Positions 19,991 to 32,404 of a stretch of DNA of 64,000 nt are shown piece after piece. Source of the stretch: Candidatus Binataceae bacterium (lineage in GTDB: Bacteria > Desulfobacterota > Binatia > Binatales > Binataceae). A program made the position numbers and the translations under genes. Each line of letters begins with the position of its first letter. Within the stretch, counting starts at the first letter, position 1. The stretch is taken from contig DATJMX010000022.1 in the NCBI GenBank assembly GCA_035508495.1, forward strand, positions 44,139 to 108,138. Reading direction: 5' to 3'. The notes under the pieces were generated by a model. That model did not search any database. It saw only the letters and a program-made list of their open reading frames with translations, and had not been told where the DNA came from.

Positions 19991-21415
19991 GTGCGAAGCA
20001 GTTTCCGGGTAACATTTCGAATCTTGAAACAATCCGGTAATCGAGCGTCAGCGATTTTAGCTGCGGCCAGTATTTTTGTGCTTGCGGGCGTGGTTTTCTG
20101 CGCCTTCGAATGCTCGGCGCGTGCGCAAGGCTATGCCGCCGCGATCGCATCGGACGAGCCGTCAATCGCGCCCGGCAGCAGGATCACGCTCCAGAATTGG
20201 CAACGCTACAAACAGTTCATGTCCGCGGGGATGATAGCGCTGTTCGAGGGCTCGCATTTCTGGCGGTTGCCGCCGAACATCGAGATTGAAATCGGTCCGA
20301 CGATTTCAATTCCGCTGCCCGCGAAATATCTGCAAGACACGGCTCGCTATGCGAATCGCACAGCGCTGACCAAGACTCGCGATGGCGGCTACGTGCCGAC
20401 TGGCTATGTCGCGGGCTTGCCGTTCCCCGAGCCGCAGAAGGGCGACCCGGCGCTCACCGGAGAGCGAGTCTTCTGGGATACTTACTACCGCTATCAGCCG
20501 CGAGTTCAGGGCGCGCCGAATTTTTCCTATAGCCTCGATCCCGCAGGTGATATGACGCAGACTTCGGAATCGACTTATGTGCAATCGCAGCTCACGTTCC
20601 TGAGCGATCCCGCAATGCCAGCGGCAGTCCCTGAGGCGAATCCATCCGTGTACACGGCCAAATTTGATGAGGAGCTCTCGCCTGAACAATCCAGGTACTC
20701 GACCCTGCTCGATCTGCTGCCGTCGGATCCCACAAAGGTTGACGAGCTGTACGAGTACGTTCCCGCACTAAGACGTTCTTTGCGGCTGTCGCAGGCTGCG
20801 CGATGCGCTCCGGTATTCGGCAGCGACTACCTCGTCGATGACGAGAACAACGGACCTCCGGGGCTGCCGCAGCTTTTCAAAGTTGACTATCTCGGCGAAA
20901 AGAAAATCCTCGCGCTCGTGCACGCGACGCCCGCGGCTTTCGATTCTCCCGGTACCGCAGTCGGACTCGATTCGCGATTCTTCTACGCCGGCGGCGCGGG
21001 TGTCGTGCCGTTTCCGAAACCCGCGGCCGGCAGGTGGGAACTGCGCGACAGCTACGTCATCGCGCTTGAGCGACTGCCTCAATTCGCCGACGGCTATTGC
21101 TATCGCAAGCGAGTACTATACGTGGACAAGGAAAACTACTTCGCCGCTGCCCAACTCGACCTATACGATTCCGCCGATCAGCTATTCAAGTCGCAAATGA
21201 TCATCTCATATCCGCAGGCAATCCCCGGCACAGCGAATGACGTAGTACAGTCGGTAGCGGGTTCGAATACTTCATTTCTGATTAATTTCAAGGACAAACA
21301 TCTGAGTGTCGAGCCGAACCTGCATGCCTGTATCAATTCCGATTGCGCGCGCAACGGTTACTTCGACGTCAGCCGCTACGCCAGCCCTGAAGGACTGATG
21401 AAAATCGTGCAGTAG
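19991..21415 (+). CDS. DUF1329 family protein (LolA-like, periplasmic/outer-membrane associated)
   Basis: N-terminal signal sequence. ITLQNWQRYKQFMS...GYVAGLPFPEP...VFWDTYYRYQP matches the remembered DUF1329 N-terminal pattern. Adjacent to a DUF1302 gene. Start uncertain (GTG 19991 or TTG 20024). Confidence 0.8.
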   Translation: MRSSFRVTFRILKQSGNRASAILAAASIFVLAGVVFCAFECSARAQGYAAAIASDEPSIAPGSRITLQNWQRYKQFMSAGMIALFEGSHFWRLPPNIEIEIGPTISIPLPAKYLQDTARYANRTALTKTRDGGYVPTGYVAGLPFPEPQKGDPALTGERVFWDTYYRYQPRVQGAPNFSYSLDPAGDMTQTSESTYVQSQLTFLSDPAMPAAVPEANPSVYTAKFDEELSPEQSRYSTLLDLLPSDPTKVDELYEYVPALRRSLRLSQAARCAPVFGSDYLVDDENNGPPGLPQLFKVDYLGEKKILALVHATPAAFDSPGTAVGLDSRFFYAGGAGVVPFPKPAAGRWELRDSYVIALERLPQFADGYCYRKRVLYVDKENYFAAAQLDLYDSADQLFKSQMIISYPQAIPGTANDVVQSVAGSNTSFLINFKDKHLSVEPNLHACINSDCARNGYFDVSRYASPEGLMKIVQ

Positions 21416-21426
21416 GCTCTATCGCG

Positions 21427-23148
21427 TTGTCGTTGGAAGCTTACAAGGCGGTGCGGTCGCGCAGCCTCGCGATCCTGATCATATCGGCGCTGGTTTACGT
21501 CGCGAGCTTTTCCGAGCAGGCTCGGGCGCAAGATTTATCGCTTAATTTAGCCGATCAGTTCGGTCGCAGCATCTTCACGGGCGCAGCGCAGCCGATGCTC
21601 GATCTCAGTCATTCCGATTCTCCGCTCAGCGGACTATCGATTACGGGTCTTTTGAGCAACACGAGCGGGATGTGGGCCAGCTCCGCCGAGCTAACCAACT
21701 TCGGGCGCGCGGCAGGGGAGCATCACGGCGCAAATTCACTTTCTGTCGAACGCAATTGGATCCAGGCCGACTCCAACTACGTACTCGACGGCAATAACAA
21801 GTTCTTCGTCCGATTCTGGGGCGTCTACGAGCCGCCATATCCGTGGGAATCGACTAATATTCTCAGCGAGCAACAGGTTTACGATAAGAGCCAGTCGCAA
21901 TTTTATAACCAGTATACTGTTCGCGATGCGTTCTGGAAAAATACCACTGGCCCGTTGACACTATTTCTCGGGCGCCAGATCGTAACGTGGGGCGAGTCGT
22001 TATCGTTTCGCGTTGGCGATGTTATCAATCCGCAGGATCTGAGTTGGAACTTCGGCTTCGCCAACCTCGAGCAGTCGCGCCTGCCGCTCTGGATGGTCCA
22101 TCCGATTTTGAACCTGCCCAAGGCCGGTCCCTTCACCGACAACTTCATCGAAGGCGTATGGGCGCCCGCGTGGCAGCCGATGTACACCAACGTCGATTAC
22201 GCCGACAACCGCTACGCCGGTCTGCACTCGATCGCGGGTTCAGTGAACCTCCAGCCGCCCGGCGGCGCGCGCTTCGATACCTATCCGTATCCGTTCACGA
22301 CGCCCGCGCAAACGCCGCCCGGGATGCAAGCTGCATTTCCGCAAGTGACGAATCTCGTTAGCCAGGTGCAAACCTACCGCCTGCCCTCAGACACTTGGGC
22401 GAATTCGGTCGAAGGATTTCGGCTGCATACGCTTGTTGAGGACGCCGAGATAACGGCGCTTTACTGGCACGGTCATCAGCTCAACAACACCATGTTCGTT
22501 AACGGCACACCGCAGATCGGTCAGACGTTTCAGTTTCGTTATCCCGAGCTGAACGATGTCGGTATCACATTGAATCGCCCGATCTATATTCCGGTCGGCG
22601 CCTTGGCGAACGTGCCCTTCGTGTTGCGCACCGAAGGCGTATGGCAAGATCGCACGCCCTTCAACACGCTCAATACCGCGCGGCCGAGCGCCGTCGTATA
22701 TTCGAGCACGCTGAACACGCTCGCTGCGCTCGACGTCGATGGTCTCGCAACGCCGTGGCTCTCACGCACCGGCGCGCTCACACTAAACCTGGAATGGAAC
22801 AACTACACGATCCTGAGCCCCAACAAAGATCTGGTCTATGGCGGATACGCGGAGCATTGGCGCCATAACGAAGAGAATCTCCTGTTCAGTGCGAGCACGA
22901 GTTGGTGGTGGGGCGCAGTCGTGCCGACGCCGACGGCGATCTTCAATCCCGATGGCAATACATGGGAGTTCTTTCCGAATATAGTTCTGACACCGCCGTG
23001 GACCAACAAGTATCTGCTGATGCTCGAATTTATTGGCGTGCTCTCAAACGACAAGTACAGCGCCTATGCGGGCGGTAACTTCAAGGGCAAGAATATCCTG
23101 CTGATGCAGTTTCAGTACAATTTCGATTTGGTGCGCGGACGGAACTGA
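21427..23148 (+). CDS. DUF1302 family outer-membrane beta-barrel protein
   Basis: Signal peptide, the hallmark GRQIVTWGESLSFRVGDVINPQD, alternating beta-strand character and an aromatic-rich C-terminus. Classic DUF1329 partner. Confidence 0.8.
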   Translation: MSLEAYKAVRSRSLAILIISALVYVASFSEQARAQDLSLNLADQFGRSIFTGAAQPMLDLSHSDSPLSGLSITGLLSNTSGMWASSAELTNFGRAAGEHHGANSLSVERNWIQADSNYVLDGNNKFFVRFWGVYEPPYPWESTNILSEQQVYDKSQSQFYNQYTVRDAFWKNTTGPLTLFLGRQIVTWGESLSFRVGDVINPQDLSWNFGFANLEQSRLPLWMVHPILNLPKAGPFTDNFIEGVWAPAWQPMYTNVDYADNRYAGLHSIAGSVNLQPPGGARFDTYPYPFTTPAQTPPGMQAAFPQVTNLVSQVQTYRLPSDTWANSVEGFRLHTLVEDAEITALYWHGHQLNNTMFVNGTPQIGQTFQFRYPELNDVGITLNRPIYIPVGALANVPFVLRTEGVWQDRTPFNTLNTARPSAVVYSSTLNTLAALDVDGLATPWLSRTGALTLNLEWNNYTILSPNKDLVYGGYAEHWRHNEENLLFSASTSWWWGAVVPTPTAIFNPDGNTWEFFPNIVLTPPWTNKYLLMLEFIGVLSNDKYSAYAGGNFKGKNILLMQFQYNFDLVRGRN

Positions 23149-23265: not shown

Positions 23266-23784
23266 ATGGGAATCAAGTCAGCCAAGCGGCAACGCTTCGA
23301 AGGGGAGGTCTTGCCGGAACTGAACGTTCTCTTTGCGGCGGCGCTTTATCTTTCGCGCAGCCAGGACGAGGCGAACGATCTCTGCGAAAAAACGATGGTG
23401 CGCGCGTATCGCGCGTTCAACGGTCGAATCGCGGCGAACTGCCGCTCGTGGCTGCTGTCAATCCTGCATGACATCGTTCGCGCGGAATCGTTAGCGCAGC
23501 CTGCGCCCGCAGTCGCCGCAGCTGACACCGCGTCGGTTGGCGGACCGGCTAAGGGGCGACGCTCAGTTGAAGATTCCGGCGTCGATCGCGCGCTGCAGAG
23601 TTTGCCAGCCGACTGCAGGGCGGCGGTGGTGATGGTCGACGTCGCGAACTTGAACTATGGAGAGGCGGCGAAGGTCCTGGCGATCCCGGTCGAGACCTTG
23701 CGTGCGCAGATTTCCAGGGGACGAGCGCTGATGCGCAATGCGCTCGCGCCGTTGCGCGGTCCCGGAGGGCTTGCCAGTGCCTGA
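23266..23784 (+). CDS. ECF-type RNA polymerase sigma factor
   Basis: Region 2 (DLCEKTMVRAYRAF...RSWLLSILHD) and region 4 HTH (LNYGEAAKVLAIPVETLRAQISRGRALM). Confidence 0.9.
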   Translation: MGIKSAKRQRFEGEVLPELNVLFAAALYLSRSQDEANDLCEKTMVRAYRAFNGRIAANCRSWLLSILHDIVRAESLAQPAPAVAAADTASVGGPAKGRRSVEDSGVDRALQSLPADCRAAVVMVDVANLNYGEAAKVLAIPVETLRAQISRGRALMRNALAPLRGPGGLASA

Positions 23785-24574
23785 TTCCGAGGCCCGGCGC
23801 GATATCGCGGCGATCGATCATCAACAATTTGTCGATCGGTATCTCAGCGAGGTCGAGAGCGAAGAGCGTCGTGAGGCGCAACGGCACGTGGCCGGATGCG
23901 CTGAATGCCAGGAGAAGCTAGCTGCTGAAACTGCGATGAAAGCTGAGATGCAAACTCTGACCGCTGTGCGCGCGCCGCTGGAGTTGCGCGATCGGATCCT
24001 GGCGGCGCTCGACGAAGTCGATCGCGAGTCCGAAAGGGCGGCGGCGCAACGCAGCAGATCGCTCGGCCGGACCTTCAGCTGGATTGCAGCGGGCGCGATC
24101 GCAGCCTGCCTCGTCGCAGTGGTATTTCTCCGCGCAAGCTTTCAAACGAATCCGGCATTCGACTCCGCGATCGCCACGTTCGAAAAGTCGCAGCAAAACT
24201 TCGCGCCGAATATCCCGTCTGACTCCGCCGCCGAGCTCGCCGCCTCGTTTATAACCCAGTTCGGTGTTCCGATGGCGTGGGATTTTTCGTCACTGGGGCT
24301 CAGCGTCGCGGGCGGGCGTATCGATCACGCGCCTGACGGCCGCGTCGTCGGATACAGCATGTACAAGGGCAACCGCGGCACACTGATGTGCATCATCTAT
24401 CGCGCCGACGCGATTGCCTTTCCGCCCGGCGGCCAGCTCGTCAAGGGAATTCACATTTACGAGTACAAGGGCTACTCGATCGCGGAGACCAATCGCTATG
24501 CGGTATTCGCGATCATGGTCAGCACGGTGCCCGCCGCAGATTTGCAGCAGGCATTCGCACAACTCCCGGGTTAA
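23777..24574 (+). CDS. Anti-sigma factor (zf-HC2, single TM, periplasmic C-terminal domain)
   Basis: H-x3-C-x2-C motif (HVAGCAECQEKL) and one TM helix (WIAAGAIAACLVAVVFL). GTG 23777 overlaps the sigma gene's TGA (23782-23784). Confidence 0.75.
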   Translation: MPDSEARRDIAAIDHQQFVDRYLSEVESEERREAQRHVAGCAECQEKLAAETAMKAEMQTLTAVRAPLELRDRILAALDEVDRESERAAAQRSRSLGRTFSWIAAGAIAACLVAVVFLRASFQTNPAFDSAIATFEKSQQNFAPNIPSDSAAELAASFITQFGVPMAWDFSSLGLSVAGGRIDHAPDGRVVGYSMYKGNRGTLMCIIYRADAIAFPPGGQLVKGIHIYEYKGYSIAETNRYAVFAIMVSTVPAADLQQAFAQLPG

Positions 24575-24579
24575 TAACG

Positions 24580-24614
24580 AAAAAATGCGGCGAAGCACGA
24601 ATGCCTCGCCGCAT
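24580..24614 (-). terminator. Bidirectional rho-independent terminator between convergent genes
   Basis: ATGCGGCGA / TCGCCGCAT 9-bp stem, 12-nt loop. On the minus strand it is followed by TTTTTT, just after the dienelactone hydrolase stop. Confidence 0.7.
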
Positions 24615-24637
24615 CGATTCTTGCCGCTGACTGATTG

Positions 24638-25357
24638 TTACGCTGCGAAGACTTCCTCGAAGAACGACACCATCGAGTTCCACGAACGCTGGTCGGCGGA
24701 CTTGTTGTACTTGATGCCGGGATTCCCGAGCTGGTCGGCATCGCGATTCGTGAAGCTATGAACGGTGCCGCCGTAGCTGATGACCTGCCAATCGGCGCCG
24801 GCCTTGGTCATCTCGGCTTCGAAGTCGGTGACCTGCTGAACCGGGATCATCGGATCGTCGGCCCCGGTGCAAACCAGCACCTTAGCCTTGACCTTGCCGG
24901 CCTCTGCGGGCGTCTGCGTCTGCAATCCGCCATGGAACGACACAATCCCACGCAACGGTTCGCCTGCGCGTGCGAGCTCCAGCGAAAACGTCCCGCCCAT
25001 GCAGAAGCCGATCGACGCGAGGCGATTTCCATCGACCTGCGGAAATGACTTGAGCTTGTCGAGCGCCGCGCGGCCGCGCGCGCGTAATGCGCCGGGCTTG
25101 CCGAAGAGCGTCATCGCTTTTTCGATCGCCTTCTGCAGATCGGTGAACTGCATGCCGTCGCCATATGGATCGCCGGCGAACGCGACGTAACCGAGCGCGG
25201 CGATACGCTCCGCGCGCTCTTTGGCGTGCGCGCCGAGGCCGAACGCCTCCGGCATCACCAGCACTCCGGGGCGCTTGCCCTGCCTGGTTTCGTCATAGGC
25301 GAGGTAGCCGCGGAGCGTTACGTCGCCGTCCTTGTATTCGATGGTTTCAGTCTTCAT
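24638..25357 (-). CDS. Dienelactone hydrolase family protein
   Basis: ATG 25357 with AAGGAG upstream. Typical MKTETIEYKDGDVTLRGYLA N-terminus and a GFCMGG nucleophile-elbow cysteine. Confidence 0.85.
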   Translation of the reverse strand: MKTETIEYKDGDVTLRGYLAYDETRQGKRPGVLVMPEAFGLGAHAKERAERIAALGYVAFAGDPYGDGMQFTDLQKAIEKAMTLFGKPGALRARGRAALDKLKSFPQVDGNRLASIGFCMGGTFSLELARAGEPLRGIVSFHGGLQTQTPAEAGKVKAKVLVCTGADDPMIPVQQVTDFEAEMTKAGADWQVISYGGTVHSFTNRDADQLGNPGIKYNKSADQRSWNSMVSFFEEVFAA

Positions 25358-25496
25358 CCGATGCTCCTTGCTCTTGAGTGGGAAAAGCGGCGCGAGCTTA
25401 TCACGAAAATCGCCCCGCGCAGGAGCCTCGATTTGCATAGTTTGCCGTCCTCAATCCGAGTAATAAGTAGGAACCAGCATCAAAGGAGATTCGACA

Positions 25497-26744
25497 ATGG
25501 ACGACCGTCTTGGCTTCGGTGTGTTTCTCGCCCCGCATCATCCGATCGGCGAAAACCCGACCCTGCAACTGCAGCGCGACCTGCAGCTCGCGACGCTGCT
25601 CGACGATCTCGGCTACGACGAGTTCTGGGTCGGAGAGCATCATTCGGGCGGCTGGGAAACGATCGCCTCGCCGGAGATGTTCCTCGCCGCAACCGCGATG
25701 GTCACAAAGCGAATCAAGCTTGGCACCGGCGTAGTATCGATTCCGTATCACCATCCGTTCACAGTCGCGCAGCGAATCGTGATGCTCGACCATCTGAGCC
25801 GCGGGCGCGCGATGCTCGGCGTTGGCCCGGGCGCGCTGCCATCGGACGCTTTCATGCTCGGCATCGATCCGATCGTTCAGCGCGATCAGATGGACGAGGG
25901 CCTCGGCGTCATCATCCGCCTGCTCACCGAACGCGAGCCGATCACGGTTGATGGCTCATGGTATCGACTGCGCGACGCGGCACTGCATCTGCGCCCGATA
26001 CAGCGCAAGTTGCCGATCGCGGTCGCGTCGATGATCTCGCCGGCCGGGATGAAGTGCGCGGGAAAATACGGCGTCGGCGTGCTGTCGGTCGGATCGTATC
26101 TGCCCGAGGGTCTCAGCGCGCTGAAGACGCAGTGGTCGTTTGCCGAGTCGTCGGCCAAGGAGCACGGGCAGCAGGTCGATCGCGAAAACTGGCGAATCGT
26201 GATGCCGTTCCATATCGCCGATTCCAAGGAAGAAGCGCTGCGCGACGTCGCCGAAGGCCTCAAGCGCTGGAACAACGAGTACGTGGTCGGAATCCTCGGG
26301 CGCCCGGACGGCAAGAACTTCGATGACGGTTACGAAGCGGCGAAGTTCATGAACGAGATGGGCGGTGGCATCTTCGGCACGCCTGAGGATGCGATCGAAA
26401 AGCTCGAAAAGCTGAAGCAGCTCTCGGGTGGTTACGGGACCGTGCTCGCATTCGCTCACGATTGGGCGCCGCGCGAGAAGATGTTCCGCAGCTACGAGTT
26501 GCTCGCCCGCCACGTTATCCCGCGATTCCAGGGCCAGCTCGATTCGATCGAGCTGAGCGCGGCGCGAGTGACGGCCAAGAAGGTCGAGCTGATGGGCGCG
26601 GTCGCCGGCGCGATAATGAAAGCGATCAGCTCCGACGAAAAAGCAGTCGAAGCATTCGCAAAGAGCGCTGCCACGGGACCCTTCAGCCTCGCCCCAGCCC
26701 AGAAAGCCGCCGCCGACTCAGCCCCCCGCCCGGCAGGAAAATAG
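25497..26744 (+). CDS. LLM-class (luciferase-like) flavin-dependent monooxygenase/oxidoreductase
   Basis: AAAGGAGA SD. LGYDEFWVGEHHS motif and TIM-barrel LLM pattern; 415 aa. Confidence 0.85.
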   Translation: MDDRLGFGVFLAPHHPIGENPTLQLQRDLQLATLLDDLGYDEFWVGEHHSGGWETIASPEMFLAATAMVTKRIKLGTGVVSIPYHHPFTVAQRIVMLDHLSRGRAMLGVGPGALPSDAFMLGIDPIVQRDQMDEGLGVIIRLLTEREPITVDGSWYRLRDAALHLRPIQRKLPIAVASMISPAGMKCAGKYGVGVLSVGSYLPEGLSALKTQWSFAESSAKEHGQQVDRENWRIVMPFHIADSKEEALRDVAEGLKRWNNEYVVGILGRPDGKNFDDGYEAAKFMNEMGGGIFGTPEDAIEKLEKLKQLSGGYGTVLAFAHDWAPREKMFRSYELLARHVIPRFQGQLDSIELSAARVTAKKVELMGAVAGAIMKAISSDEKAVEAFAKSAATGPFSLAPAQKAAADSAPRPAGK

Positions 26745-26759
26745 GAAATTCTCCGAAGC

Positions 26760-26785
26760 CCCTCTCCCGTGGTCACGGGAGAGGG
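26760..26785 (+). other. Stem-loop after the LLM gene (CCCTCTCCCGTG / CACGGGAGAGGG)
   Basis: 12-nt inverted repeat with a 2-nt centre, 16 nt after the TAG stop. No U-tract. Confidence 0.45.
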
Positions 26786-26968
26786 TGCCTGACGCGCGAT
26801 AATCGCGTGCAACACCGGTGAGGGCGATTGGCGCTTCATCACCCAATGCTCGATGCGAACAAATGCCAGGTTTGGTGCGCTCTTCGAAAGTTTGACCGTC
26901 AACGGAAATTCTCGCACAGTCTCCGATGCGCAGACCTCTCTGTCCGCACAGCGCGCTGGAGGCGTAGC

Positions 26969-29242
26969 GTGACTTTACCACGTTCGGTCGGACGCTCGAG
27001 TCAGCTCGTCGCGTTACTTTCATTCGCAGCGCTCTTTGCTGCGTCGCTCGCCTTCGCCCCTCGCGCGAGAGCGCAGAACTCGACGATGCTCAGTACGGGC
27101 GTCTCGGTCGACGTATGCAACAGCTGCGACCTTCAGACCCAGGAGGCCGTCGCCTCCGAGGACGATCGTCACGACTCAGCCGACTCCGCTTTCGATAGCA
27201 GCGAGCGCTCGGAGAACGTCAGTCATGACGAGGCCGATCAAAGTATCCAGCGCAGCAACATGCCGGGCGAAGTAAAGCAGGAGGCCCTGGCTAACGAACA
27301 AGAGCGCCATCAAAACACGTTGACCGCGATCGAGCGCGATCGCGCGATCGAAGCCTCGCGCCATCAGCAACGCCTCGCGCAGATCATGGCGCAGGCCGGC
27401 AAGCTCCTGTCGGATCTCGTGCAGAACGTGATGCCGAATGGATCGCCGGCGGGCGGAACTCCTTCAGGCGGCGGCGCACCAACTTCGCCGAATCAACCGG
27501 GTCCTGGAAATGCGCCGAGCGGCGGCGGCAACCCGTCGATGCCCAGTGGAGCTGGCGGCGGCAATCCTGTCGCAGGCGGCGGCGGTGGTTCTCCAAACAG
27601 TGGGGGCAATCCATCGGGAACTGCGCCGCCGCCGATTAGCGCTAATCCGATCGCGGGCGGAGGTTCGCCCAACCCCTCGGGGGGAGGATCGCAAAATCCG
27701 CCGAACAACACCCAGTATCCCGGTGCACAACAAGTCAACCCTTCACAACCGTCAGCTTCACCGCAGAACTCATCCTCGAATCCAGGCAATCAAAGCCCCG
27801 GCATCCTCAAGGGTCTGAACGACTGGATCAATGGCCTTGCGCAGAAAATGGCGCCGCCGCCGAGCACTGGAACTGGACAGCCATACACGGGCCCGCTCGC
27901 GATCAACGGTCATTCGCCGCTCTATTACTTGAACGAAGCGGCCAACAGTCTCGCCGACAAGCTGCCTGGCGGTAGCAGCGGCCTGCAGCAGGCAAACCAG
28001 GCCGTCGGCAATGTTGCCAACGGACAACGAAATCAGTGGACGACACCGATGAGCCCGCAGGCCGCTGTCGGACAGGTCGGCTATGCGTTCACGGGCGCAG
28101 TGATCGGCAAGGGCCTCGGCGCTTCGGCGGGCGCACTCAAGGGTGCATACGGGCAGGCGATTCAGAACGGCGCCGGCAGGATGGGCGCGCTCCAGACCGC
28201 AGGCAATTCGATCGCCGCCGCAACGACCGCAGGCATCGGCGCGGCAAGGCAGGAGGCGACGACGCTCGCGGGGATGGGAGGCGCGGCGGCAGGCAATCTC
28301 GGCACCAATCCCGGCGGCGGTTCATATAATGGAAGTGTCAGCTCAGGCGGCGGATCCGAACCTCCCGGCGGCGCTGGGGGAGGCGTCGGCGGCGGACCGA
28401 ATGAGCAGGGCGGAGGTCCCGCGCCGGGTGAGGCGAGCAGTTCGACCTCGACGCAGACCGCTCAGGCCGGCGGCCAGAGCCGTACCCAACCTGCCGCGGG
28501 AGGCGGAGGATCTCCGCCTGAGGAGTCGGTCCCGCCCGCAGATGGAGCGGGCACTCCTTCCAATCCGCTCACGGGCGCGGCGGTTTCGAACTCGTGGGAA
28601 AATCTGGCGGGCAAGACGATCGTCGTGGGCGGCCAGCCGGTTCAACTCGGCAACATGGTCGGATCGCCCGGCGGTTTCGGCGCCGTTTACCAGATGGCGG
28701 AAGACCCAAGCAAAGTGATCAAGATCGTGCGCCCTGGCGAAATCGGCGCAGACTCGATCACGCGGCAGTTGGAAGGCGCGGAATTGGCCAATGCGGCCGG
28801 GGTTAAAACTCCCGCCGTTTATCAGGCGTCGGCAGGCGCGAACGGCGATCCGCCGCATATCATCATGGACAATGTCATGGGCGGGAAGTGGTCGAATGTG
28901 CAGATGCCGTCGCAGGCGCAGCTCACCCCGCAACAGGCCACCGCGCTCCAGCAGATGTACAACCAGCTCGGTCAGAACGATCTTATCTGGGCCGACGGCA
29001 AACTGAACAACGTTTTCTTCTACGACTCGCCCGAATCGCCAAGCGTCGGGATTCTCGACCCCGACATGATTTTTCCTTCGAGTCAGCTTCCCTGGCAGCC
29101 GCCCGTTGTGGGCGCGAACCTGATGAAGAACGCATCGGCTGCGATGAAAGCGACGCTCGGCCGCCTGCAATACACTCCCGAAGATATCAACGCCGTTGAC
29201 GTGATGCGCGATCGCTTTAAGTTTCAATTCCCGAGCATGTAA
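26969..29242 (+). CDS. Exported low-complexity protein with C-terminal protein-kinase-like domain
   Basis: GTG 26969 lies 6 nt after GGAGG. Signal peptide ...LAFAPRARA/Q, then ~500 aa of G/P/S/N/Q-rich sequence. C-terminal motifs are GSPGGFGAVY, VIKIV, WADGKLNNVFF and ILDPD. The gene itself is confident; the function is inferred. Confidence 0.7.
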   Translation: MTLPRSVGRSSQLVALLSFAALFAASLAFAPRARAQNSTMLSTGVSVDVCNSCDLQTQEAVASEDDRHDSADSAFDSSERSENVSHDEADQSIQRSNMPGEVKQEALANEQERHQNTLTAIERDRAIEASRHQQRLAQIMAQAGKLLSDLVQNVMPNGSPAGGTPSGGGAPTSPNQPGPGNAPSGGGNPSMPSGAGGGNPVAGGGGGSPNSGGNPSGTAPPPISANPIAGGGSPNPSGGGSQNPPNNTQYPGAQQVNPSQPSASPQNSSSNPGNQSPGILKGLNDWINGLAQKMAPPPSTGTGQPYTGPLAINGHSPLYYLNEAANSLADKLPGGSSGLQQANQAVGNVANGQRNQWTTPMSPQAAVGQVGYAFTGAVIGKGLGASAGALKGAYGQAIQNGAGRMGALQTAGNSIAAATTAGIGAARQEATTLAGMGGAAAGNLGTNPGGGSYNGSVSSGGGSEPPGGAGGGVGGGPNEQGGGPAPGEASSSTSTQTAQAGGQSRTQPAAGGGGSPPEESVPPADGAGTPSNPLTGAAVSNSWENLAGKTIVVGGQPVQLGNMVGSPGGFGAVYQMAEDPSKVIKIVRPGEIGADSITRQLEGAELANAAGVKTPAVYQASAGANGDPPHIIMDNVMGGKWSNVQMPSQAQLTPQQATALQQMYNQLGQNDLIWADGKLNNVFFYDSPESPSVGILDPDMIFPSSQLPWQPPVVGANLMKNASAAMKATLGRLQYTPEDINAVDVMRDRFKFQFPSM

Positions 29243-29263
29243 ACGCGATCGCACACGCGGAAT

Positions 29264-29992
29264 TCATTGATGCAAAAGTCCGCGCTCGACCGTTATCGCA
29301 TCGGCGTAATCCGCCCGCATCATTCCCGCGTAGATCGCGCGGACCGCGGCGCATTTCTGCGCGTCGCTCTGATGGACGGGATCGTTGATCATCGCTTTGA
29401 TCGCATTCAGATCGTTGGCCGGCATGTACATCATCGTTCTGCTCAGTGCCGCCTGGAAGTCCTGGGGATTCGGCGCGCGCCGCACCGGAAGCCCGTTGAT
29501 CGAGGCCAGCGCAGCGCGATCGTAGATCCTGCCCCACTTGCGTTGCTGATCCACCGGAAGTTGCTCGATCGCCGGGACGAACGCCTCGCCCGCGCCTCCG
29601 CTCCAGAGCATCGCGCAGCTCTGCGTATTAGCCCGATTCGCCAGTTCCGAGCTGAGCCACAACAGCTTGCCGAGCGAGGCATCGTCGAGGCGGCGAAAGC
29701 CGTCATTGGCAGCGGCGGTCAGCAATTGACTCGCTGTCATCGAGCTGCCGCCGGCAGCCTGGCTCGCGATCTGATTCGTGGCGCGCGAGATCGTCGGATA
29801 CGATTGCACGAGCGTGGCTTGAAACACGCTCTCCGGCTGATTGCCCTCCGCGCTCGGATGCATATCGTAGCGGGTGAGAATGAATCCCGCGACCAGTCCT
29901 AAGATGATCACAAAAAGCAACCGCCGGCCCCATCGCGAGCGTCGCGGCCGCTCGGCTCGAAACGGTTTCGCGGCTGTTTTCTGTTCTGCCAT
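29264..29992 (-). CDS. Hypothetical single-pass membrane protein with periplasmic helical domain
   Basis: ATG 29992 preceded by AAGGAGGA. One TM helix (LLFVIILGLVAGFIL) after a basic N-terminus. No family recognised. Confidence 0.75.
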   Translation of the reverse strand: MAEQKTAAKPFRAERPRRSRWGRRLLFVIILGLVAGFILTRYDMHPSAEGNQPESVFQATLVQSYPTISRATNQIASQAAGGSSMTASQLLTAAANDGFRRLDDASLGKLLWLSSELANRANTQSCAMLWSGGAGEAFVPAIEQLPVDQQRKWGRIYDRAALASINGLPVRRAPNPQDFQAALSRTMMYMPANDLNAIKAMINDPVHQSDAQKCAAVRAIYAGMMRADYADAITVERGLLHQ

Positions 29993-30095
29993 ATTCGCGT
30001 CAGATCCTCCTTTATCGCGTCGCTCGTCGTGCCGCTATTGCCCGATGCGCATCGCTGCTCCGATTGTGCGATAACTCCGCTGGAGGTTTTTCGAC

Positions 30096-30755
30096 ATGGC
30101 CCAGATGGACGTTTACGAAGCGATGCGCACGCTGCGCGCGGTGCGCCGGCTCAGGCCCGATCCGATTCCCGCCGACGTGCTGCACCGCGTGCTCGAGGCC
30201 GCGACCTTTGCACCCACCGGCGGCAATCAGCAGCCGTGGCGAATCGTCGCGGTCCGCGACGGCGCGAAGAAGCAGCGCCTGGGCGAGCTCTACGCCGATC
30301 GCTGGCACAACTACACCAAGCGCTATCGTCCGTTCCCGGCCGACATGCCTGCCGATGCGCGCGAGCGCACCGAGCGCACACTCATGGCCGGCGACTTTCT
30401 CGCTGATCATTTTGGCTCGACGCCGGTCATCGCGATGTTTTGCTTCAATCCGAAGTTCATGGCGATCACCGATTCCGAGCAGAAGAATCGCCCATCGGTT
30501 GTCGGCGGCGGCTCGGTCTACACCGCTGTCGAGAATCTCCTGCTGGCGTGCCGCGCCGAGGGTCTGGGATGCGTATTGACGACGCTGCTCTGCGAGCGCG
30601 AGCCCGAGGTGCGCGCGCTGCTCGGCATTCCTGATCCGTGGTACACGGCAGCCGCGATCCCGATTGGCTATCCGGTCGGACGCGGACATGGCCCGCTCAT
30701 TCGCCGCCCTGTCGATCAACTGGTGTATGCCGATTCGTGGGGCGCGAAGTTCTGA
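30096..30755 (+). CDS. Nitroreductase family protein
   Basis: GGAGG SD. RAVRRLRPDPIPADVLHRVLEAATFAPTGGNQQPWR is the classic nitroreductase N-terminal motif. Confidence 0.9.
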   Translation: MAQMDVYEAMRTLRAVRRLRPDPIPADVLHRVLEAATFAPTGGNQQPWRIVAVRDGAKKQRLGELYADRWHNYTKRYRPFPADMPADARERTERTLMAGDFLADHFGSTPVIAMFCFNPKFMAITDSEQKNRPSVVGGGSVYTAVENLLLACRAEGLGCVLTTLLCEREPEVRALLGIPDPWYTAAAIPIGYPVGRGHGPLIRRPVDQLVYADSWGAKF

Positions 30756-32404
30756 GGCTTGCGCCGGATTCATTGAAATCGCGACACGCACTCGCGGCGC
30801 TGCTGGTCGTCGTGGGATTTTGCGCCGGCCTCTGGCCGCTCGCGCATGATTTTTATTTCGCGCACGTCGATGAGCATCTGTACGCCGACGCCTCGATTCG
30901 CATGGTGCAGTCGGGAGACTGGGGCACTGCGTACTACAACACCGGCTACCCGCGCTTTCAGAAGCCGATTCTGACCTACTGGCTGATAGCTGCGAGTTAC
31001 CGGGCCTTCGGGATCAGCGCGCTCACCTCGCGGTTGCCCTCGATACTCGCGGGCGTCGTGACGCTCCTAATTACTCACGCGCTCGCGATACGCGTCACGC
31101 CGCGCGCTCCGGCCGCGATTCTCGCGATGCTCATCCTGGGGAGTACGCCGGTTTTTATTCTCGCGGCGATTCGCGCCAATCCCGACATTTTTCTCGCGAT
31201 GTTCATCGCGTGGAGTGTGTACGGATTTTTCGGCCTGATGTTCGCTGAGACGCCGTCGGCGGGCGACGGATGGCATGCGTACCTCGGCGCTGGACTCGCG
31301 ATCATGGCCAAGGGTGTCCCAGGTCTGATCTTTCTCGCATACATATGGCTCTTCGCCGCGACGTTCGTCGCCGACCGGCGGCGTCGCGTGATTCCGCTGA
31401 TTCCGCTGGCGGTCGGACTCGCGATTCCCGTCACATGGTTCCTCGCGACGCTGCACGCACATGGCAGTTTGTTCACGCACGTGATGTTCAACGACCAGGT
31501 GCGGGCGCGCATCTCGCTCGGAATCGTCGCAACGCCGCTACGCATGCTGGCGATGGTTGCGCAATACGTACTCTTCTTCCTGCCGTGGTGCATCGTGCTG
31601 ATCGCGGAGCGAGTTGCCCAGGCCCGAGCCGATTCAATCATGAGATCGGAGTTCGCGCGCTTCGCGGCAGGATTCGCCTTGCTCTATGCGATCGCGTTCG
31701 GCCTGAATCCCACGATGAATGGGCACTATCTTCTTCCCGCGTGCCCACTGCTCGCTGTCGTGATTGCCGGGGCGCTGGCTGAGCTCGATTCGCACGCCTC
31801 GCGTGTCGCTCTGGAAGCGGCTGCGGCCATCGTCATGGTGGCGCTGGCGGCATTCTCCATCTTCGCGATGCTCCTGAACCGCGACGGCTTGACGATTACC
31901 AGTGGGATGGCGTGCGCGGCGTTCGCCGTCTCGATTTTGTTGGCGATCCGACGCATCAGGACTTCCGACTTGCTGATGCGGCTGGCGGTCGGCATTTTCC
32001 TTTTCTTTCCGCTCGCGAGTGTTCTGCTCCGGCCATGGCTGTTGCCGGATTTTGGACAGCAGGTCGTGGCCGCGGTTGGACCCACCGCCTCGCGTATATC
32101 TTTCGTCGGGCCCGAACCGCTTGCGTCTTATGTTCGCCTTGCGTCGGGTGGAACCACGCAGGTGATGAGCGGGCCCGATCTGAGCAGCGCGCTTTTGTCG
32201 GACCTGCCGATAATCGCGCCCAAGTCAGACGCGGAGCTGCTCGAATCGCATGGCTATGCGATCGCGCCTGTCGGCGGCGCGATCGAGCGAGAGTCTGTTA
32301 GCGACGTGGCCCGAGCGGTGTTTCGCGTCGACTTCGGCAACTTCCTCGAATCGTCGAAGCAAGGATTTGTGCTTGCGATTCCAGCATCGCCTCCGAAACC
32401 ATGA
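30737..32404 (+). CDS. GT-C glycosyltransferase, ArnT/PMT (GT39/GT83)-like
   Basis: HVDEHLYADASIRMVQSGDW...PRFQKPILTYWLIA is the ArnT/PMT-type first periplasmic loop; more than 10 TM helices. Start uncertain: GTG 30737 (19-nt overlap with the upstream gene) or TTG 30773. Confidence 0.8.
   Translation: MGREVLRLAPDSLKSRHALAALLVVVGFCAGLWPLAHDFYFAHVDEHLYADASIRMVQSGDWGTAYYNTGYPRFQKPILTYWLIAASYRAFGISALTSRLPSILAGVVTLLITHALAIRVTPRAPAAILAMLILGSTPVFILAAIRANPDIFLAMFIAWSVYGFFGLMFAETPSAGDGWHAYLGAGLAIMAKGVPGLIFLAYIWLFAATFVADRRRRVIPLIPLAVGLAIPVTWFLATLHAHGSLFTHVMFNDQVRARISLGIVATPLRMLAMVAQYVLFFLPWCIVLIAERVAQARADSIMRSEFARFAAGFALLYAIAFGLNPTMNGHYLLPACPLLAVVIAGALAELDSHASRVALEAAAAIVMVALAAFSIFAMLLNRDGLTITSGMACAAFAVSILLAIRRIRTSDLLMRLAVGIFLFFPLASVLLRPWLLPDFGQQVVAAVGPTASRISFVGPEPLASYVRLASGGTTQVMSGPDLSSALLSDLPIIAPKSDAELLESHGYAIAPVGGAIERESVSDVARAVFRVDFGNFLESSKQGFVLAIPASPPKP

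What the first reader, a model, noticed from the sequence alone, without database searches (positions are those of the whole stretch)
26969..29242. Sec-exported, mostly disordered 757-aa protein ending in a minimal but catalytically complete protein-kinase-like domain
GTG 26969 (GGAGG at 26958-26962) yields a classic signal peptide (VTLPRSVGRSSQLVALLSFAALFAASLAFAPRARA/Q). A short acidic/helical segment follows. Then come about 500 residues of G/P/S/N/Q low complexity, with degenerate GGGNPS/GGGSPN units at roughly nt 27400-27800 and 28300-28560. These flank a Gly/Ala zipper-like stretch (VGYAFTGAVIGKGLGASAGALKGAYG..., roughly nt 28075-28300). The last ~215 aa (nt ~28589-29239) carry the kinase-fold motifs in the correct order and spacing: glycine loop GSPGGFGAVY, VIKIV lysine (nt 28715-28729), a downstream Glu (QLEGAE), catalytic loop WADGKLNNVFF = D-x-K-x-x-N (nt 28991-29011), and metal-binding ILDPD (nt 29051-29065). 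The domain size and lack of an activation segment recall RIO/Bud32/Kdo-WaaP minimal kinases, but those are cytoplasmic. I cannot name a family for an exported copy tethered to a long disordered linker. The signal-linker-C-terminal enzyme architecture resembles polymorphic toxins or secreted effectors. The gene is monocistronic, with a 224-nt upstream region containing the palindrome CGCGAT-A-ATCGCG (26795-26807).
Basis: partly seen in the sequence, partly recalled or inferred. Interest (0 to 1): 0.8.

Follow-up and report, generated by a model that had tools for sequence, protein, structure and literature searches.

The report
Exported modular protein with NleH-like kinase
An uncultured soil bacterium encodes a Sec-exported, largely low-complexity protein whose last ~215 residues form a small, catalytically intact protein-kinase domain most like the NleH/OspG effector kinases of gut pathogens; the same domain is a swappable C-terminal cassette on many other exported scaffolds, so it is probably a secreted toxin or effector of a family with no curated model.

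Summary
GTG 26969 to TAA 29242 is a real 757-aa gene, and independent assemblies call the same product. It has a conserved Sec-type signal peptide (A-R-A/Q) and two G/P/S/N-rich linkers around a conserved central and Gly/Ala-zipper region.

The C-terminal domain folds confidently (pLDDT 92.6) as a minimal protein-kinase-like domain. Its closest relatives by sequence are NleH1/NleH2 (profile E=7.7e-7). Pfam and NCBIfam have no model that reaches threshold.

An exhaustive HMM search found 130 cluster representatives. The Gly-loop, K585, D676, N681, D697 and D699 are each kept in 84-96 of 97 domain copies.

About 80% of long members start with a signal peptide. The domain sits on at least 6 unrelated N-terminal scaffolds, one of them a MafB polymorphic-toxin domain. 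On the window's own scaffold it alternates with a papain-like glutamine-deamidase toxin domain.

The convergent 242-aa membrane-anchored partner follows the scaffold, not the warhead, so it is probably an accessory protein rather than a cognate immunity protein.

Best reading: a secreted polymorphic toxin or effector with a kinase warhead. Its target and delivery route are unknown.

The parts
26876..26968 (+). Conserved 5' leader or promoter region, with the palindrome TTGAC-C-GTCAA (26892-26902) and the GGAGG ribosome-binding site (26958-26962)
   Evidence: It is nearly invariant against the orthologous loci L007 and L014, while sequence further upstream diverges. The element occurs once in the window and only at the closest orthologous loci. 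TTGACC-17 nt-CACAGT would be a weak sigma-70-like promoter by eye; the scan tool found none.
26969..29242 (+). CDS of the 757-aa exported modular protein (GTG start, TAA stop)
   Evidence: The same 757-aa product is called on L003 and L005. Orthologues: P0002, 781 aa and the L001 ORFs.
26969..27073 (+). Sec/SPase-I type signal peptide, aa 1-35, predicted cleavage A-R-A/Q
   Evidence: Read directly from the sequence: n-region R5 and R9, h-region aa 12-30, A33-x-A35. The layout is conserved in P0002, L001 and P0005. No signal-peptide predictor was available.
27074..27463 (+). Acidic, helix-prone N-terminal scaffold segment (aa 36-165) with a conserved CxxC (C50, C53)
   Evidence: BLAST finds this segment only in P0002, P0005 and P0024 among family members. 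It is also present in the deamidase-type L012 protein. Composition.
27464..27784 (+). Low-complexity linker 1 (aa 166-272), 83% G/P/S/N/Q, no charged residues
   Evidence: It is not a DNA tandem repeat.
27785..28093 (+). Conserved central scaffold region (aa 273-375; ILKGLNDWING...GQPYTGPLAINGHSPLYYLN...QWT)
   Evidence: Alignment A4. Shared with the deamidase-type proteins of L012 and L013.
28094..28333 (+). Gly/Ala-rich glycine-zipper-like segment (aa 376-455; repeated GxxxG)
   Evidence: 53% G+A. Conserved in the scaffold relatives. The only Pfam hint is a non-significant Romo1 match, E=0.29.
28334..28558 (+). Low-complexity linker 2 (aa 456-530), where kinase-type and deamidase-type proteins diverge
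   Evidence: The L001 orthologue carries a frameshift in this region.
28559..29239 (+). C-terminal minimal protein-kinase-like domain (aa 531-757): Gly-loop G565/G568, K585, D676, N681, D697, D699
   Evidence: NleH1 E=1.3e-4 and E=7.7e-7 with the family profile. AF2 pLDDT 92.6. Foldseek returns only kinase folds. Residue conservation across 97 domain copies.
29264..29992 (-). Convergent 242-aa partner gene: N-in single-pass membrane anchor, periplasm-facing domain with two invariant Cys
   Evidence: It lies next to a scaffold gene in every locus examined: L001, L007, L008, L010, L011, L012, L013, L014. Alignment A3. No Pfam, PADLOC or PDB relative.

Best explanation
The gene encodes a Sec-exported, modular (polymorphic-toxin-like) protein. 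After signal-peptide cleavage, an N-terminal scaffold carries a C-terminal 'warhead'. The scaffold consists of an acidic helical segment with a CxxC, two flexible G/P/S/N linkers, a conserved central region and a glycine-zipper-like segment.

The warhead is a minimal protein-kinase-like domain related to the type III effector kinases NleH and OspG. It keeps the ATP-binding Gly-loop and Lys, the catalytic Asp/Asn and the metal-binding D-x-D. It is therefore most likely an active ATP-dependent phosphotransferase.

The periplasm and the outside lack ATP, and the same domain is exchanged as a cassette among many exported scaffolds. The kinase therefore most likely acts inside another cell after release and uptake, by phosphorylating a target protein. 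The glycine-zipper and linker scaffold and the membrane-anchored 242-aa partner would serve export, retention or delivery rather than catalysis.

Shown: the gene, the export signal, the fold, residue conservation, the modularity and the partner linkage. Inferred: kinase activity, action in a foreign cell, the role of the scaffold and the partner, and the kind of target. No warhead-matched immunity gene was found beside the kinase cassette in three scaffold contexts; a fourth, class A, is unresolved. That leans toward a target absent from the producer, possibly eukaryotic.
For: Gene and export:
- The ORF is real and is called identically elsewhere.
- The signal peptide is conserved in orthologues.
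- 61 of 93 family members of at least 400 aa pass a strict signal-peptide heuristic, and about 14 more have one by eye.

Kinase domain:
- NleH1 is the top PDB sequence hit, alone (E=1.3e-4) and with the family profile (E=7.7e-7). In those alignments K585, D676 and N681 line up with the NleH1 VLK Lys and D..N.
- The AF2 model has pLDDT 92.6 and pTM 0.89.
- All top Foldseek matches are kinase folds, including OspG and NleH1 (TM normalised to target 0.70).
- Conservation in 97 copies: K585 90, D676 95, N681 96, D697 95, D699 92, G568 91.

Family and modularity:
- The exhaustive search gives 130 representatives, 58 of them at E<=1e-10.
- They fall into at least 6 unrelated N-terminal classes plus 17 singletons.
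- P0066 combines a MafB N-domain (PF06255, E=5e-26) with this kinase at its C-terminus.
- Scaffold homologues in L011-L013 are 45% identical to window aa 48-542 but end in a domain hitting PF15644 'Papain fold toxin 1, glutamine deamidase' (E=7e-4) instead of the kinase.
- The class-B giant P0037 has a tandem paralogue that shares aa 1 to about 900 but has another C-terminus, next to an Imm49 gene.

Partner:
- It is linked to the scaffold across kinase identities from 72% down to about 37%, and equally in deamidase-type loci.

Immunity:
- No small same-strand downstream ORF follows the kinase cassette in the window, L015 or L018.
Against: - No biochemical data exist; kinase activity is inferred from residue conservation only.
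- The canonical alpha-C Glu is not conserved, so the Lys-Glu ion pair may be missing or replaced (Q600?).
- No signal-peptide predictor was run.
- No secretion system, lysis gene or mobile element lies in the 64-kb window, so the route beyond the periplasm is unknown.
- A defining feature of polymorphic toxin systems, an adjacent cognate immunity gene, was looked for and not found.
- The deamidase assignment is below Pfam's gathering score (21 against 24.1 bits).
- In most loci the pair sits beside envelope glycosyltransferase genes, which could instead point to a housekeeping envelope role.
- The producer's taxonomy was not established.
Confidence: 0.58

Rival explanations
1. It is an antibacterial polymorphic toxin, and the convergent 242-aa membrane protein is its immunity protein. 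The partner would protect the producer in the periplasm or at the inner membrane, for example by blocking the glycine-zipper or translocation step rather than the enzyme.
For: The two-gene linkage is strict across divergent loci. The partner's predicted topology puts its domain in the same compartment as the exported protein, and it has two invariant Cys. The kinase cassette occurs on a MafB scaffold. Class-B loci carry Imm49.
Against: The partner stays 47-50% identical, evenly along its length, whether the neighbouring gene ends in a kinase or in a papain-like deamidase. Cognate immunity proteins normally co-vary with the toxin domain. The partner has no similarity to Imm49 or to the protein downstream of a class-A member. 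The gene is convergent rather than co-transcribed. No immunity-like ORF follows the kinase in the MafB-type or class-B loci.
Confidence: 0.15
2. It is a resident envelope enzyme. The exported kinase-like domain would modify a periplasmic or surface substrate of the producer itself (a protein or an envelope glycan), working with the neighbouring GT-C glycosyltransferases.
For: There is conserved synteny with nitroreductase, PMT_2, GT87 and NTP_transferase genes in the window, L007, L011, L012 and L014. The structural neighbours include small-molecule and atypical kinases.
Against: The periplasm has no known ATP pool (established knowledge). The pair occurs without these neighbours in L001. On the same scaffold the kinase is replaced by an unrelated papain-like domain, which a dedicated glycan-modifying role does not explain. 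The closest relatives by sequence are protein kinases of effectors.
Confidence: 0.12
3. The domain has the kinase fold but performs another chemistry (AMPylation, glutamylation or nucleotide hydrolysis, as in SelO or SidJ-type atypical kinases), or it is a non-catalytic binding module.
For: The alpha-C Glu is missing and D+2 is variable (H, K, N or S). The metal site is an unusual D-x-D. Precedents exist in the superfamily (established knowledge; PMC9758233 lists such families).
Against: The Gly-loop, Lys, catalytic Asp/Asn and metal-binding Asp are all in canonical order and nearly invariant, as in the active kinases NleH and OspG. Pseudokinases usually lose several of these.
Confidence: 0.1
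4. The protein is not exported: the true start lies downstream, or the hydrophobic N-terminus is an uncleaved membrane anchor.
For: No predictor or experiment was available. The upstream in-frame TTG at 26828 shows the start is not unique.
Against: GGAGG lies 7 nt before the GTG. The leader is conserved up to the GTG and the protein is conserved from it. The A-x-A/Q site is kept in orthologues, and N-terminal signal-like sequences occur family-wide on unrelated scaffolds. An uncleaved anchor would still place the protein outside the cytoplasm.
Confidence: 0.04

Closest known systems
NleH1/NleH2 (EHEC/EPEC) and OspG (Shigella) type III effector kinases
   Same: They are the best sequence relatives among solved structures. 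Both have a minimal two-lobe kinase fold of about 170-215 aa without an activation segment or GHI subdomain (model). Gly-loop, Lys, D-x4-N and a downstream metal-binding Asp come in the same order. In both cases the kinase is the C-terminal catalytic domain behind a non-catalytic N-terminal region.
   Different: NleH and OspG have no Sec signal and are injected by a type III system into animal cells. This protein has a cleavable Sec signal and a 500-aa low-complexity and glycine-zipper scaffold, comes from a soil metagenome, and has no T3SS nearby. Identity is only about 18-25%. The NCBIfam NleH equivalog score is 14.8 against a cut-off of 450.
MafB polymorphic toxins of Neisseria (PMC4287609; PF06255)
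   Same: Sec signal peptide, conserved N-terminal region and exchangeable C-terminal toxin domain. The route across the outer membrane is not obvious from the locus. One member of this kinase family (P0066) actually has a MafB N-domain.
   Different: The window protein has no MafB domain. There is no MafA-like lipoprotein gene and no downstream MafI-like immunity gene. The partner gene is convergent and does not co-vary with the C-terminal domain.
Polymorphic toxin systems in general (Zhang et al. 2012, PMC3482391), including 'Tox-Peptide Kinase' and Tox-PL1/Gln_amidase (PF15644)
   Same: Conserved trafficking N-terminus with alternative C-terminal enzymatic domains. One alternative on this scaffold resembles Tox-PL1. 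There is a precedent for a kinase as a toxin domain.
   Different: The catalogued kinase toxin is of the lanthipeptide-synthetase type, with motifs DxH, YKP[KR] and DxHxEN, and is delivered by PVC systems in Firmicutes. It is not NleH-like. The cognate immunity gene expected for such systems was not found here.
Bud32/PRPK and RIO atypical kinases
   Same: They are top structural neighbours of the model, with a similar small size and no activation loop.
   Different: They are cytoplasmic housekeeping proteins. Sequence scores are far below family thresholds (Bud32 11.4 against 125 bits). They are not found as exported cassettes.

Membership tests
Protein kinase-like (PKL) superfamily | Two-lobe kinase fold | tested here: met
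   AF2 pLDDT 92.6 and pTM 0.89. Foldseek gives 479 PDB matches at E<=1e-3, and the top 50 are all kinases.
Protein kinase-like (PKL) superfamily | Gly-rich loop, VAIK-type Lys, catalytic Asp and Asn (D-x4-N), and metal-binding Asp (DFG equivalent), in order and conserved | tested here: met
   G565 84, G568 91, K585 90, D676 95, N681 96, D697 95, D699 92 of 97 copies.
Protein kinase-like (PKL) superfamily | Alpha-C Glu pairing with the Lys | tested here: not met
   E602 is kept in 13 of 97 copies. The conserved residues in that helix are Q600 (73) and G603 (82). This feature is also absent from some active atypical kinases, so it does not exclude membership.
Protein kinase-like (PKL) superfamily | Phosphotransfer activity | not testable with these tools
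   Needs biochemistry.
NleH/OspG effector kinase family | Significant sequence similarity to NleH/OspG kinase domains | tested here: met
   NleH1 E=1.3e-4 with the single sequence. With the family profile, NleH1 E=7.7e-7 and NleH2 E=1.4e-5, both ranking above all other kinases.
NleH/OspG effector kinase family | Passes the curated NleH model (NCBIfam NF041316 equivalog) | tested here: not met
   14.8 bits against a cut-off of 450.
NleH/OspG effector kinase family | Type III secreted (no Sec signal; T3SS in the genome) | tested here: not met
   A Sec-type signal peptide is present, and no T3SS genes are in the 64-kb window. The whole genome was not available.
NleH/OspG effector kinase family | Minimal C-lobe without an activation segment | tested here: met
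   In the model, D-x-D is followed directly by a short strand and four short helices. TM-score normalised to NleH1 is 0.70.
Polymorphic toxin systems | Conserved N-terminal trafficking region with alternative C-terminal toxin domains among paralogues or orthologues | tested here: met
   The window scaffold carries a kinase or a papain-like deamidase. The class-B scaffold carries a kinase or another C-terminus. The kinase cassette sits on at least 6 scaffold classes, including MafB.
Polymorphic toxin systems | Cognate immunity gene immediately downstream that co-varies with the toxin domain | tested here: not met
   The only linked gene is convergent and does not co-vary with the C-terminal domain. 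No small downstream ORF follows the kinase in L015 or L018.
Polymorphic toxin systems | Toxicity to target cells | not testable with these tools
   Needs expression and competition assays.
MafB toxins (PF06255) | MafB/DUF1020 N-terminal domain | tested here: not met
   The window protein has no PF06255 hit at E<=10. Only family member P0066 has it.
Hanks-type Ser/Thr kinases (PF00069), RIO1, Bud32, Kdo/WaaP, YrbL | Passes the curated family model | tested here: not met
   No Pkinase, RIO1 or Kdo hit. YrbL-PhoP_reg scores 11.9 against 31.5 bits, and Bud32 TIGR03724 scores 11.4 against 125 bits.
Known anti-phage defence systems (PADLOC) | Match to any defence-system protein model | tested here: not met
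   No hit for the kinase protein or the partner at E<=0.01.

The most novel reading that the evidence does not exclude
Soil bacteria would hold a large, uncurated family of Sec-exported NleH/OspG-like kinase 'warheads' that are shuffled among at least six secreted delivery scaffolds and need no immunity gene. That would make them injection-independent toxins or effectors, probably aimed at eukaryotic or other foreign cells. They could be the environmental reservoir from which the type III effector kinases of enteric pathogens were recruited. On this reading the window's scaffold (glycine zipper plus disordered linkers plus a dedicated membrane-anchored partner) would be a new self-delivery module.
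Probability: 0.3. Interest if true: 0.8.

Novelty: new variant of a known kind. Interest (0 to 1): 0.66.

Why it matters
Bacterial effector kinases of the NleH/OspG type are known almost only as substrates of type III secretion in animal pathogens, and they have few known relatives. Here the same minimal kinase appears as a Sec-exported, exchangeable C-terminal cassette. It occurs in 130 sequence clusters from environmental bacteria, on scaffolds that include a MafB polymorphic-toxin domain.

If active, these proteins would add protein phosphorylation by an NleH-like kinase to the repertoire of polymorphic toxin warheads. They would give an evolutionary context for NleH/OspG. They would also raise a concrete question: how does an exported kinase reach a compartment that contains ATP?

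The family has no Pfam or NCBIfam model, so it is currently annotated as 'hypothetical'. The window's scaffold and its strictly linked 242-aa partner are also uncharacterised.

Tried and rejected
- The word-indexed homologue search with the domain alone and with the 40-sequence profile found only 1-2 close relatives. The exhaustive HMM search was needed.
- The genome-contig scan with the 2-sequence alignment matched only an unrelated Hanks-type kinase of a Kofleriaceae MAG through a chance 'GEPPHIIM' word. Cluster look-ups gave no organism names.
- The metagenome-contig scan with the central scaffold region re-found only the window's own sequence.
- The partner protein has no Pfam, PADLOC or PDB-sequence relative. 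Profile comparison with Imm49 and with the protein downstream of a class-A member was negative.
- Pfam on 15 long family members (over 1000 aa) gave nothing except MafB in one, plus a sub-threshold HTH_23 hit in P0072.
- The promoter and terminator scan found nothing meaningful. Rfam found nothing in 24000-32000. TRF found no tandem repeats in the low-complexity coding regions.
- The DUF4256 (E=0.004) and Rab11-FIP3 (E=0.048) Pfam hits are below threshold and were treated as noise.
- hhalign of the family profile against the 1372-aa L018 protein and a local hmmsearch both found no kinase domain there, which turned out to be informative.
- Literature searches found no description of an exported NleH-like family. 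This covers only the held open-access library.
Full report
THE GENE. The window contains an ORF from GTG 26969 to TAA 29240-29242 (757 aa), with GGAGG 7 nt upstream. An in-frame TTG at 26828 would add 47 residues. However, gene callers on other assemblies of the same organism give the 757-aa product on L003 and L005 (ENA ERZ27256562, a 152-kb contig, and JGI 3300033134); the Logan SRR8879133 and JGI 3300032955 contigs carry only partial calls. DNA conservation with the orthologous loci L007 and L014 runs through a ~95-nt leader up to the GTG. The gene is monocistronic. The upstream luciferase-like monooxygenase gene ends at 26744, and the next gene (29264-29992) converges on it with a 21-nt gap.

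EXPORT SIGNAL. Residues 1-35 have two Arg in the n-region, a 19-residue uncharged hydrophobic core, and A33-R34-A35/Q36. There is no Cys (so no lipobox) and no twin-Arg. The same layout is kept in P0002 (…TPRATA/Q), the L001 orthologue (…TPRALA/Q) and P0005 (…LPVIA/Q). No signal-peptide predictor was available, so this part rests on the sequence and on conservation. The mature protein has only two Cys, in a CxxC that is conserved in its relatives.

ANATOMY OF THE SCAFFOLD. Composition analysis divides the mature protein as follows:

| Residues | Feature | Composition or conservation |
|---|---|---|
| 36-165 | Acidic, helix-prone segment | 17% D+E |
| 166-272 | Linker 1 | 83% G/P/S/N/Q, no charged residue |
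| 273-375 | Conserved central region | ILKGLNDWING…GQPYTGPLAINGHSPLYYLN…QWT |
| 376-455 | Gly/Ala-rich segment with repeated GxxxG | 53% G+A |
| 456-530 | Linker 2 | 68% G/P/S/N/Q |
| 531-757 | C-terminal kinase-like domain | see below |

The 'about 500 residues of low complexity' is therefore two true linkers around a conserved ~180-residue core. The linkers are not tandem repeats at DNA level.

THE C-TERMINAL DOMAIN IS A KINASE FOLD. Pfam and NCBIfam give nothing above threshold. The best sub-threshold names are NleH (E=0.015), Bud32 and YrbL. phmmer against PDB sequences finds NleH1 (4lrj) at E=1.3e-4. A profile of 40 family domains finds NleH1 at E=7.7e-7 and NleH2 at 1.4e-5, ahead of Raf, KSR and PknA kinases. 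In these alignments the NleH1 VLK lysine aligns with K585 and the NleH1 D…N with D676 and N681.

A shallow-alignment AF2 model (pLDDT 66) already matched only kinase folds. With the 40-sequence alignment the model reaches pLDDT 92.6 and pTM 0.89. Foldseek then gives 479 PDB hits at E<=1e-3. The top 50 are all kinases: Bud32, PRPK, RIO, CK1, AAK1, OspG and NleH1 (TM 0.70 normalised to NleH1). After the D-x-D motif the model has only a short strand and four short helices, so there is no activation segment, as in NleH, OspG, Bud32 and RIO.

A FAMILY, AND WHAT IS CONSERVED IN IT. The word-indexed database search found a single homologue. The exhaustive HMM search over 1.84 billion cluster representatives found 130 proteins at E<=1e-3, of which 58 are at E<=1e-10. 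I aligned 97 domain copies locally:

| Residue | Conserved in (of 97) |
|---|---|
| G565 | 84 |
| G568 | 91 |
| V573 | 87 |
| K585 | 90 |
| Q600 | 73 |
| G603 | 82 |
| A659 | 94 |
| D676 | 95 |
| N681 | 96 |
| D697 | 95 |
| D699 | 92 |

The Lys of 'D-x-K' is usually His (H 52, K 17, N 15). The ATP-binding and catalytic core is thus under strong selection, which argues for an active enzyme, but the canonical Lys-Glu pair is not a family feature.

THE FAMILY IS EXPORTED AND MODULAR. Of 93 members of at least 400 aa, 61 pass a strict signal-peptide heuristic. About 14 of the remainder clearly have one by eye (for example P0016, P0037, P0066, P0118), and others look like truncated calls. Clustering the regions upstream of the domain gives at least six unrelated N-terminal classes:
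- 50 representatives with a 'GDFVTAAxLLGLxPGQS' pre-domain module;
- 23 giants with a median length of 1411 aa;
- 5 proteins with two or three kinase copies;
- the window's class, with only 4 representatives (window, P0002, P0005, P0024);
- classes of 3 and 2 representatives;
- 17 singletons.

One singleton, P0066 (1255 aa, NCBI GCA_008501665.1), has an N-terminal MafB polymorphic-toxin domain (PF06255, E=5e-26) and this kinase at residues 1025-1179. Fifteen other long members have no Pfam domain above threshold.

THE WINDOW'S OWN SCAFFOLD IS POLYMORPHIC. Homologues of the convergent 242-aa partner always lie next to a large convergent gene. In L014 and L007 that gene is the kinase protein (E~1e-124 to the domain profile). 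In L011, L012 and L013 it has no kinase domain. The L012 protein is 45% identical to window residues 48-542, covering the helical segment, linkers, central region and glycine zipper. It then continues into a different ~180-residue C-terminus with a Cys…His…Asp pattern. That C-terminus hits PF15644 'Papain fold toxin 1, glutamine deamidase' at E=7e-4 (21 bits; gathering score 24.1). The divergence point lies in linker 2.

The class-B scaffold behaves the same way. P0037 (1593 aa, kinase at 1328-1484) is followed 41 nt later by a 1372-aa paralogue. The paralogue shares residues 1 to about 900 (40% identity) but has another C-terminus and no kinase. A convergent Imm49 gene (PF15575, E=5e-38) follows it. 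A constant N-terminus with alternative C-terminal enzymatic domains defines polymorphic toxins (PMC3482391).

THE PARTNER GENE. The 242-aa protein has a positively charged N-terminus, one hydrophobic helix, and a ~195-residue domain predicted to face the periplasm. Two Cys (C126, C214) are invariant. It has no relative in Pfam, PADLOC or PDB sequences. It is adjacent and convergent to the scaffold gene in all eight loci examined. These include L001, where the other neighbours differ, and L008 and L010, where the kinase domain is only ~34-37% identical to the window's (partner fragments 35-36% identical, E=3e-17 and 3e-11). Its sequence is 47-50% identical to the window's in the deamidase-type loci, with no region that tracks the warhead. 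It therefore goes with the scaffold, not with the kinase. That argues against a classical cognate immunity protein and for an accessory role in holding, export or anchoring, or for protection against the scaffold itself.

NO IMMUNITY GENE FOR THE KINASE. In the window, nothing lies between the stop codon and the convergent partner. In the MafB-type locus the next gene, 139 nt downstream, is an FAD/OYE oxidoreductase. In the class-B locus the kinase gene is followed directly by its paralogue. A class-A locus has Sel1-repeat genes upstream and an unrelated 230-aa gene 1 kb downstream. This absence is a failed membership criterion for classical antibacterial polymorphic toxin systems. It would be expected if the kinase's target or activator is missing from the producer. 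As background knowledge, OspG requires host E2~ubiquitin for activity (cited in PMC3585378 and PMC11078946).

CONTEXT. The 64-kb window is ordinary chromosome: acyl-CoA metabolism, P450, shikimate dehydrogenase, a BatA/VWA operon, glycosyltransferases, and DUF1302, DUF1329 and LolA-like outer-membrane proteins that indicate a diderm. There is no secretion-system, phage or transposon gene. GC content shows no island signature beyond the Gly/Pro-rich coding bias. In most loci the pair sits beside a nitroreductase-PMT_2-GT87-NTP_transferase cluster. This is the basis of the 'envelope enzyme' rival, but L001 lacks that cluster. I could not establish the organism. The related loci come from metagenome assemblies, two of them with 'forest' in the scaffold name, and from three unnamed NCBI MAGs.

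LITERATURE. The polymorphic-toxin catalogue lists one kinase toxin domain, 'Tox-Peptide Kinase'. It is related to lanthipeptide-synthetase kinases, has different motifs, and is delivered by PVC systems. TcC toxins with PKc_like hypervariable regions are mentioned in PMC7861908. A 2022 kinome survey notes that NleH-OspG itself was not in Pfam. I found no description of a Sec-exported NleH-like family in the held library. This is absence within an open-access subset, not proof of novelty.

MECHANISM, WITH CONFIDENCE BY STEP.

| Step | Confidence | Basis |
|---|---|---|
| Real gene with a kinase fold | ~0.97 | shown |
| Exported across the inner membrane by Sec | ~0.9 | sequence and conservation |
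| Active phosphotransferase | ~0.75 | inferred from near-invariant catalytic residues |
| Exchangeable warhead of a secreted toxin or effector acting in another cell | ~0.55-0.6 | inferred from modularity, the MafB fusion, the deamidase alternative and the lack of ATP outside the cytoplasm |
| Eukaryotic rather than bacterial target | ~0.3 | weak inference from missing immunity genes and the NleH/OspG relationship |

The roles of the glycine zipper and the partner in delivery are speculative.

VERDICT. The domain is a new, uncurated branch of the protein-kinase-like superfamily nearest to NleH/OspG. It occurs in a new exported, polymorphic architecture with a new linked partner. I class it as a new variant of known kinds (effector kinases and polymorphic toxins), not a categorically new system.

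Noticed in passing
window 26876-26968: About 95 nt of leader just upstream of the GTG are almost invariant against the orthologous loci L007 and L014, more conserved than the flanking DNA. The leader includes the palindrome TTGAC-C-GTCAA (26892-26902) and a possible TTGACC-17 nt-CACAGT promoter. There is no Rfam match.
   Followed up: partly
window 26760-26785: A perfect 10-bp hairpin, CCCTCTCCCG-TGGTCA-CGGGAGAGGG, lies 16 nt after the luciferase-like monooxygenase stop codon, with no T-tract. The stem appears to be kept, with sequence changes, at the same place in L007, so it may be a terminator or RNA-stability element for the upstream gene.
   Followed up: partly
L018 7345-17144: Two tandem class-B giants share a signal peptide and about 900 N-terminal residues but have different C-termini. 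One carries the kinase domain. The other has a tail with GDFD…VVEAKGG, which looks PD-(D/E)xK nuclease-like by eye. A convergent Imm49 immunity gene follows. Upstream is a four-gene operon of exported or membrane proteins, one with a faint secretin-N-like hit.
   Followed up: partly
L011 8746-9633, L012 2374-4455, L013 1886-3331: These scaffold homologues end in a papain-like (Cys…His…Asp) domain near Pfam Gln_amidase/Tox-PL1 instead of the kinase. The L012 protein also has a perfect ~39-residue tandem repeat in its first low-complexity linker, and the L013 assembly seems to have collapsed it.
   Followed up: partly
L001 7921-10612: The orthologue (59% identical in the kinase domain) is split into two overlapping ORFs by a frameshift inside the GGGNPS-type low-complexity linker. 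This is either a pseudogene or an assembly error in repetitive sequence.
   Followed up: no
family members P0003-P0108, first ~75 residues: Just after the signal peptide, many members on different scaffolds carry one of two short motifs: 'L-[KQR]-G-G-[VI]-x-x-D' (15 of 93) or 'D-V-F-N-S-N' (10 of 93). The same patterns occur 15 and 6 times in 1086 background windows of the same proteins. The window protein has a degenerate form (LSTGVSVDV). This may be a secondary sorting or docking signal.
   Followed up: partly
family class A (e.g. P0003 aa ~265-400): Fifty representatives share a conserved pre-kinase module, 'GDFV[TS]AAxLLGLxPGQS…LR.IYQE.TT…G.SP.[DE]AGR.AGRR.C.Y', followed by 'NPL.G.A'. It has no Pfam match and may be a pre-toxin or processing module.
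   Followed up: no
window 23738-24574: This 278-aa ORF has an N-terminal Cys/His-rich segment (…CAECQEKL…) and a central hydrophobic helix, which looks like an anti-sigma factor. It has no Pfam hit at E<=1e-3.
   Followed up: no
window 19991-23148: An adjacent DUF1329 (LolA-like) and DUF1302 gene pair encodes outer-membrane proteins typical of diderm bacteria. It is the only clue here to the cell-envelope type of the unnamed producer.
   Followed up: no
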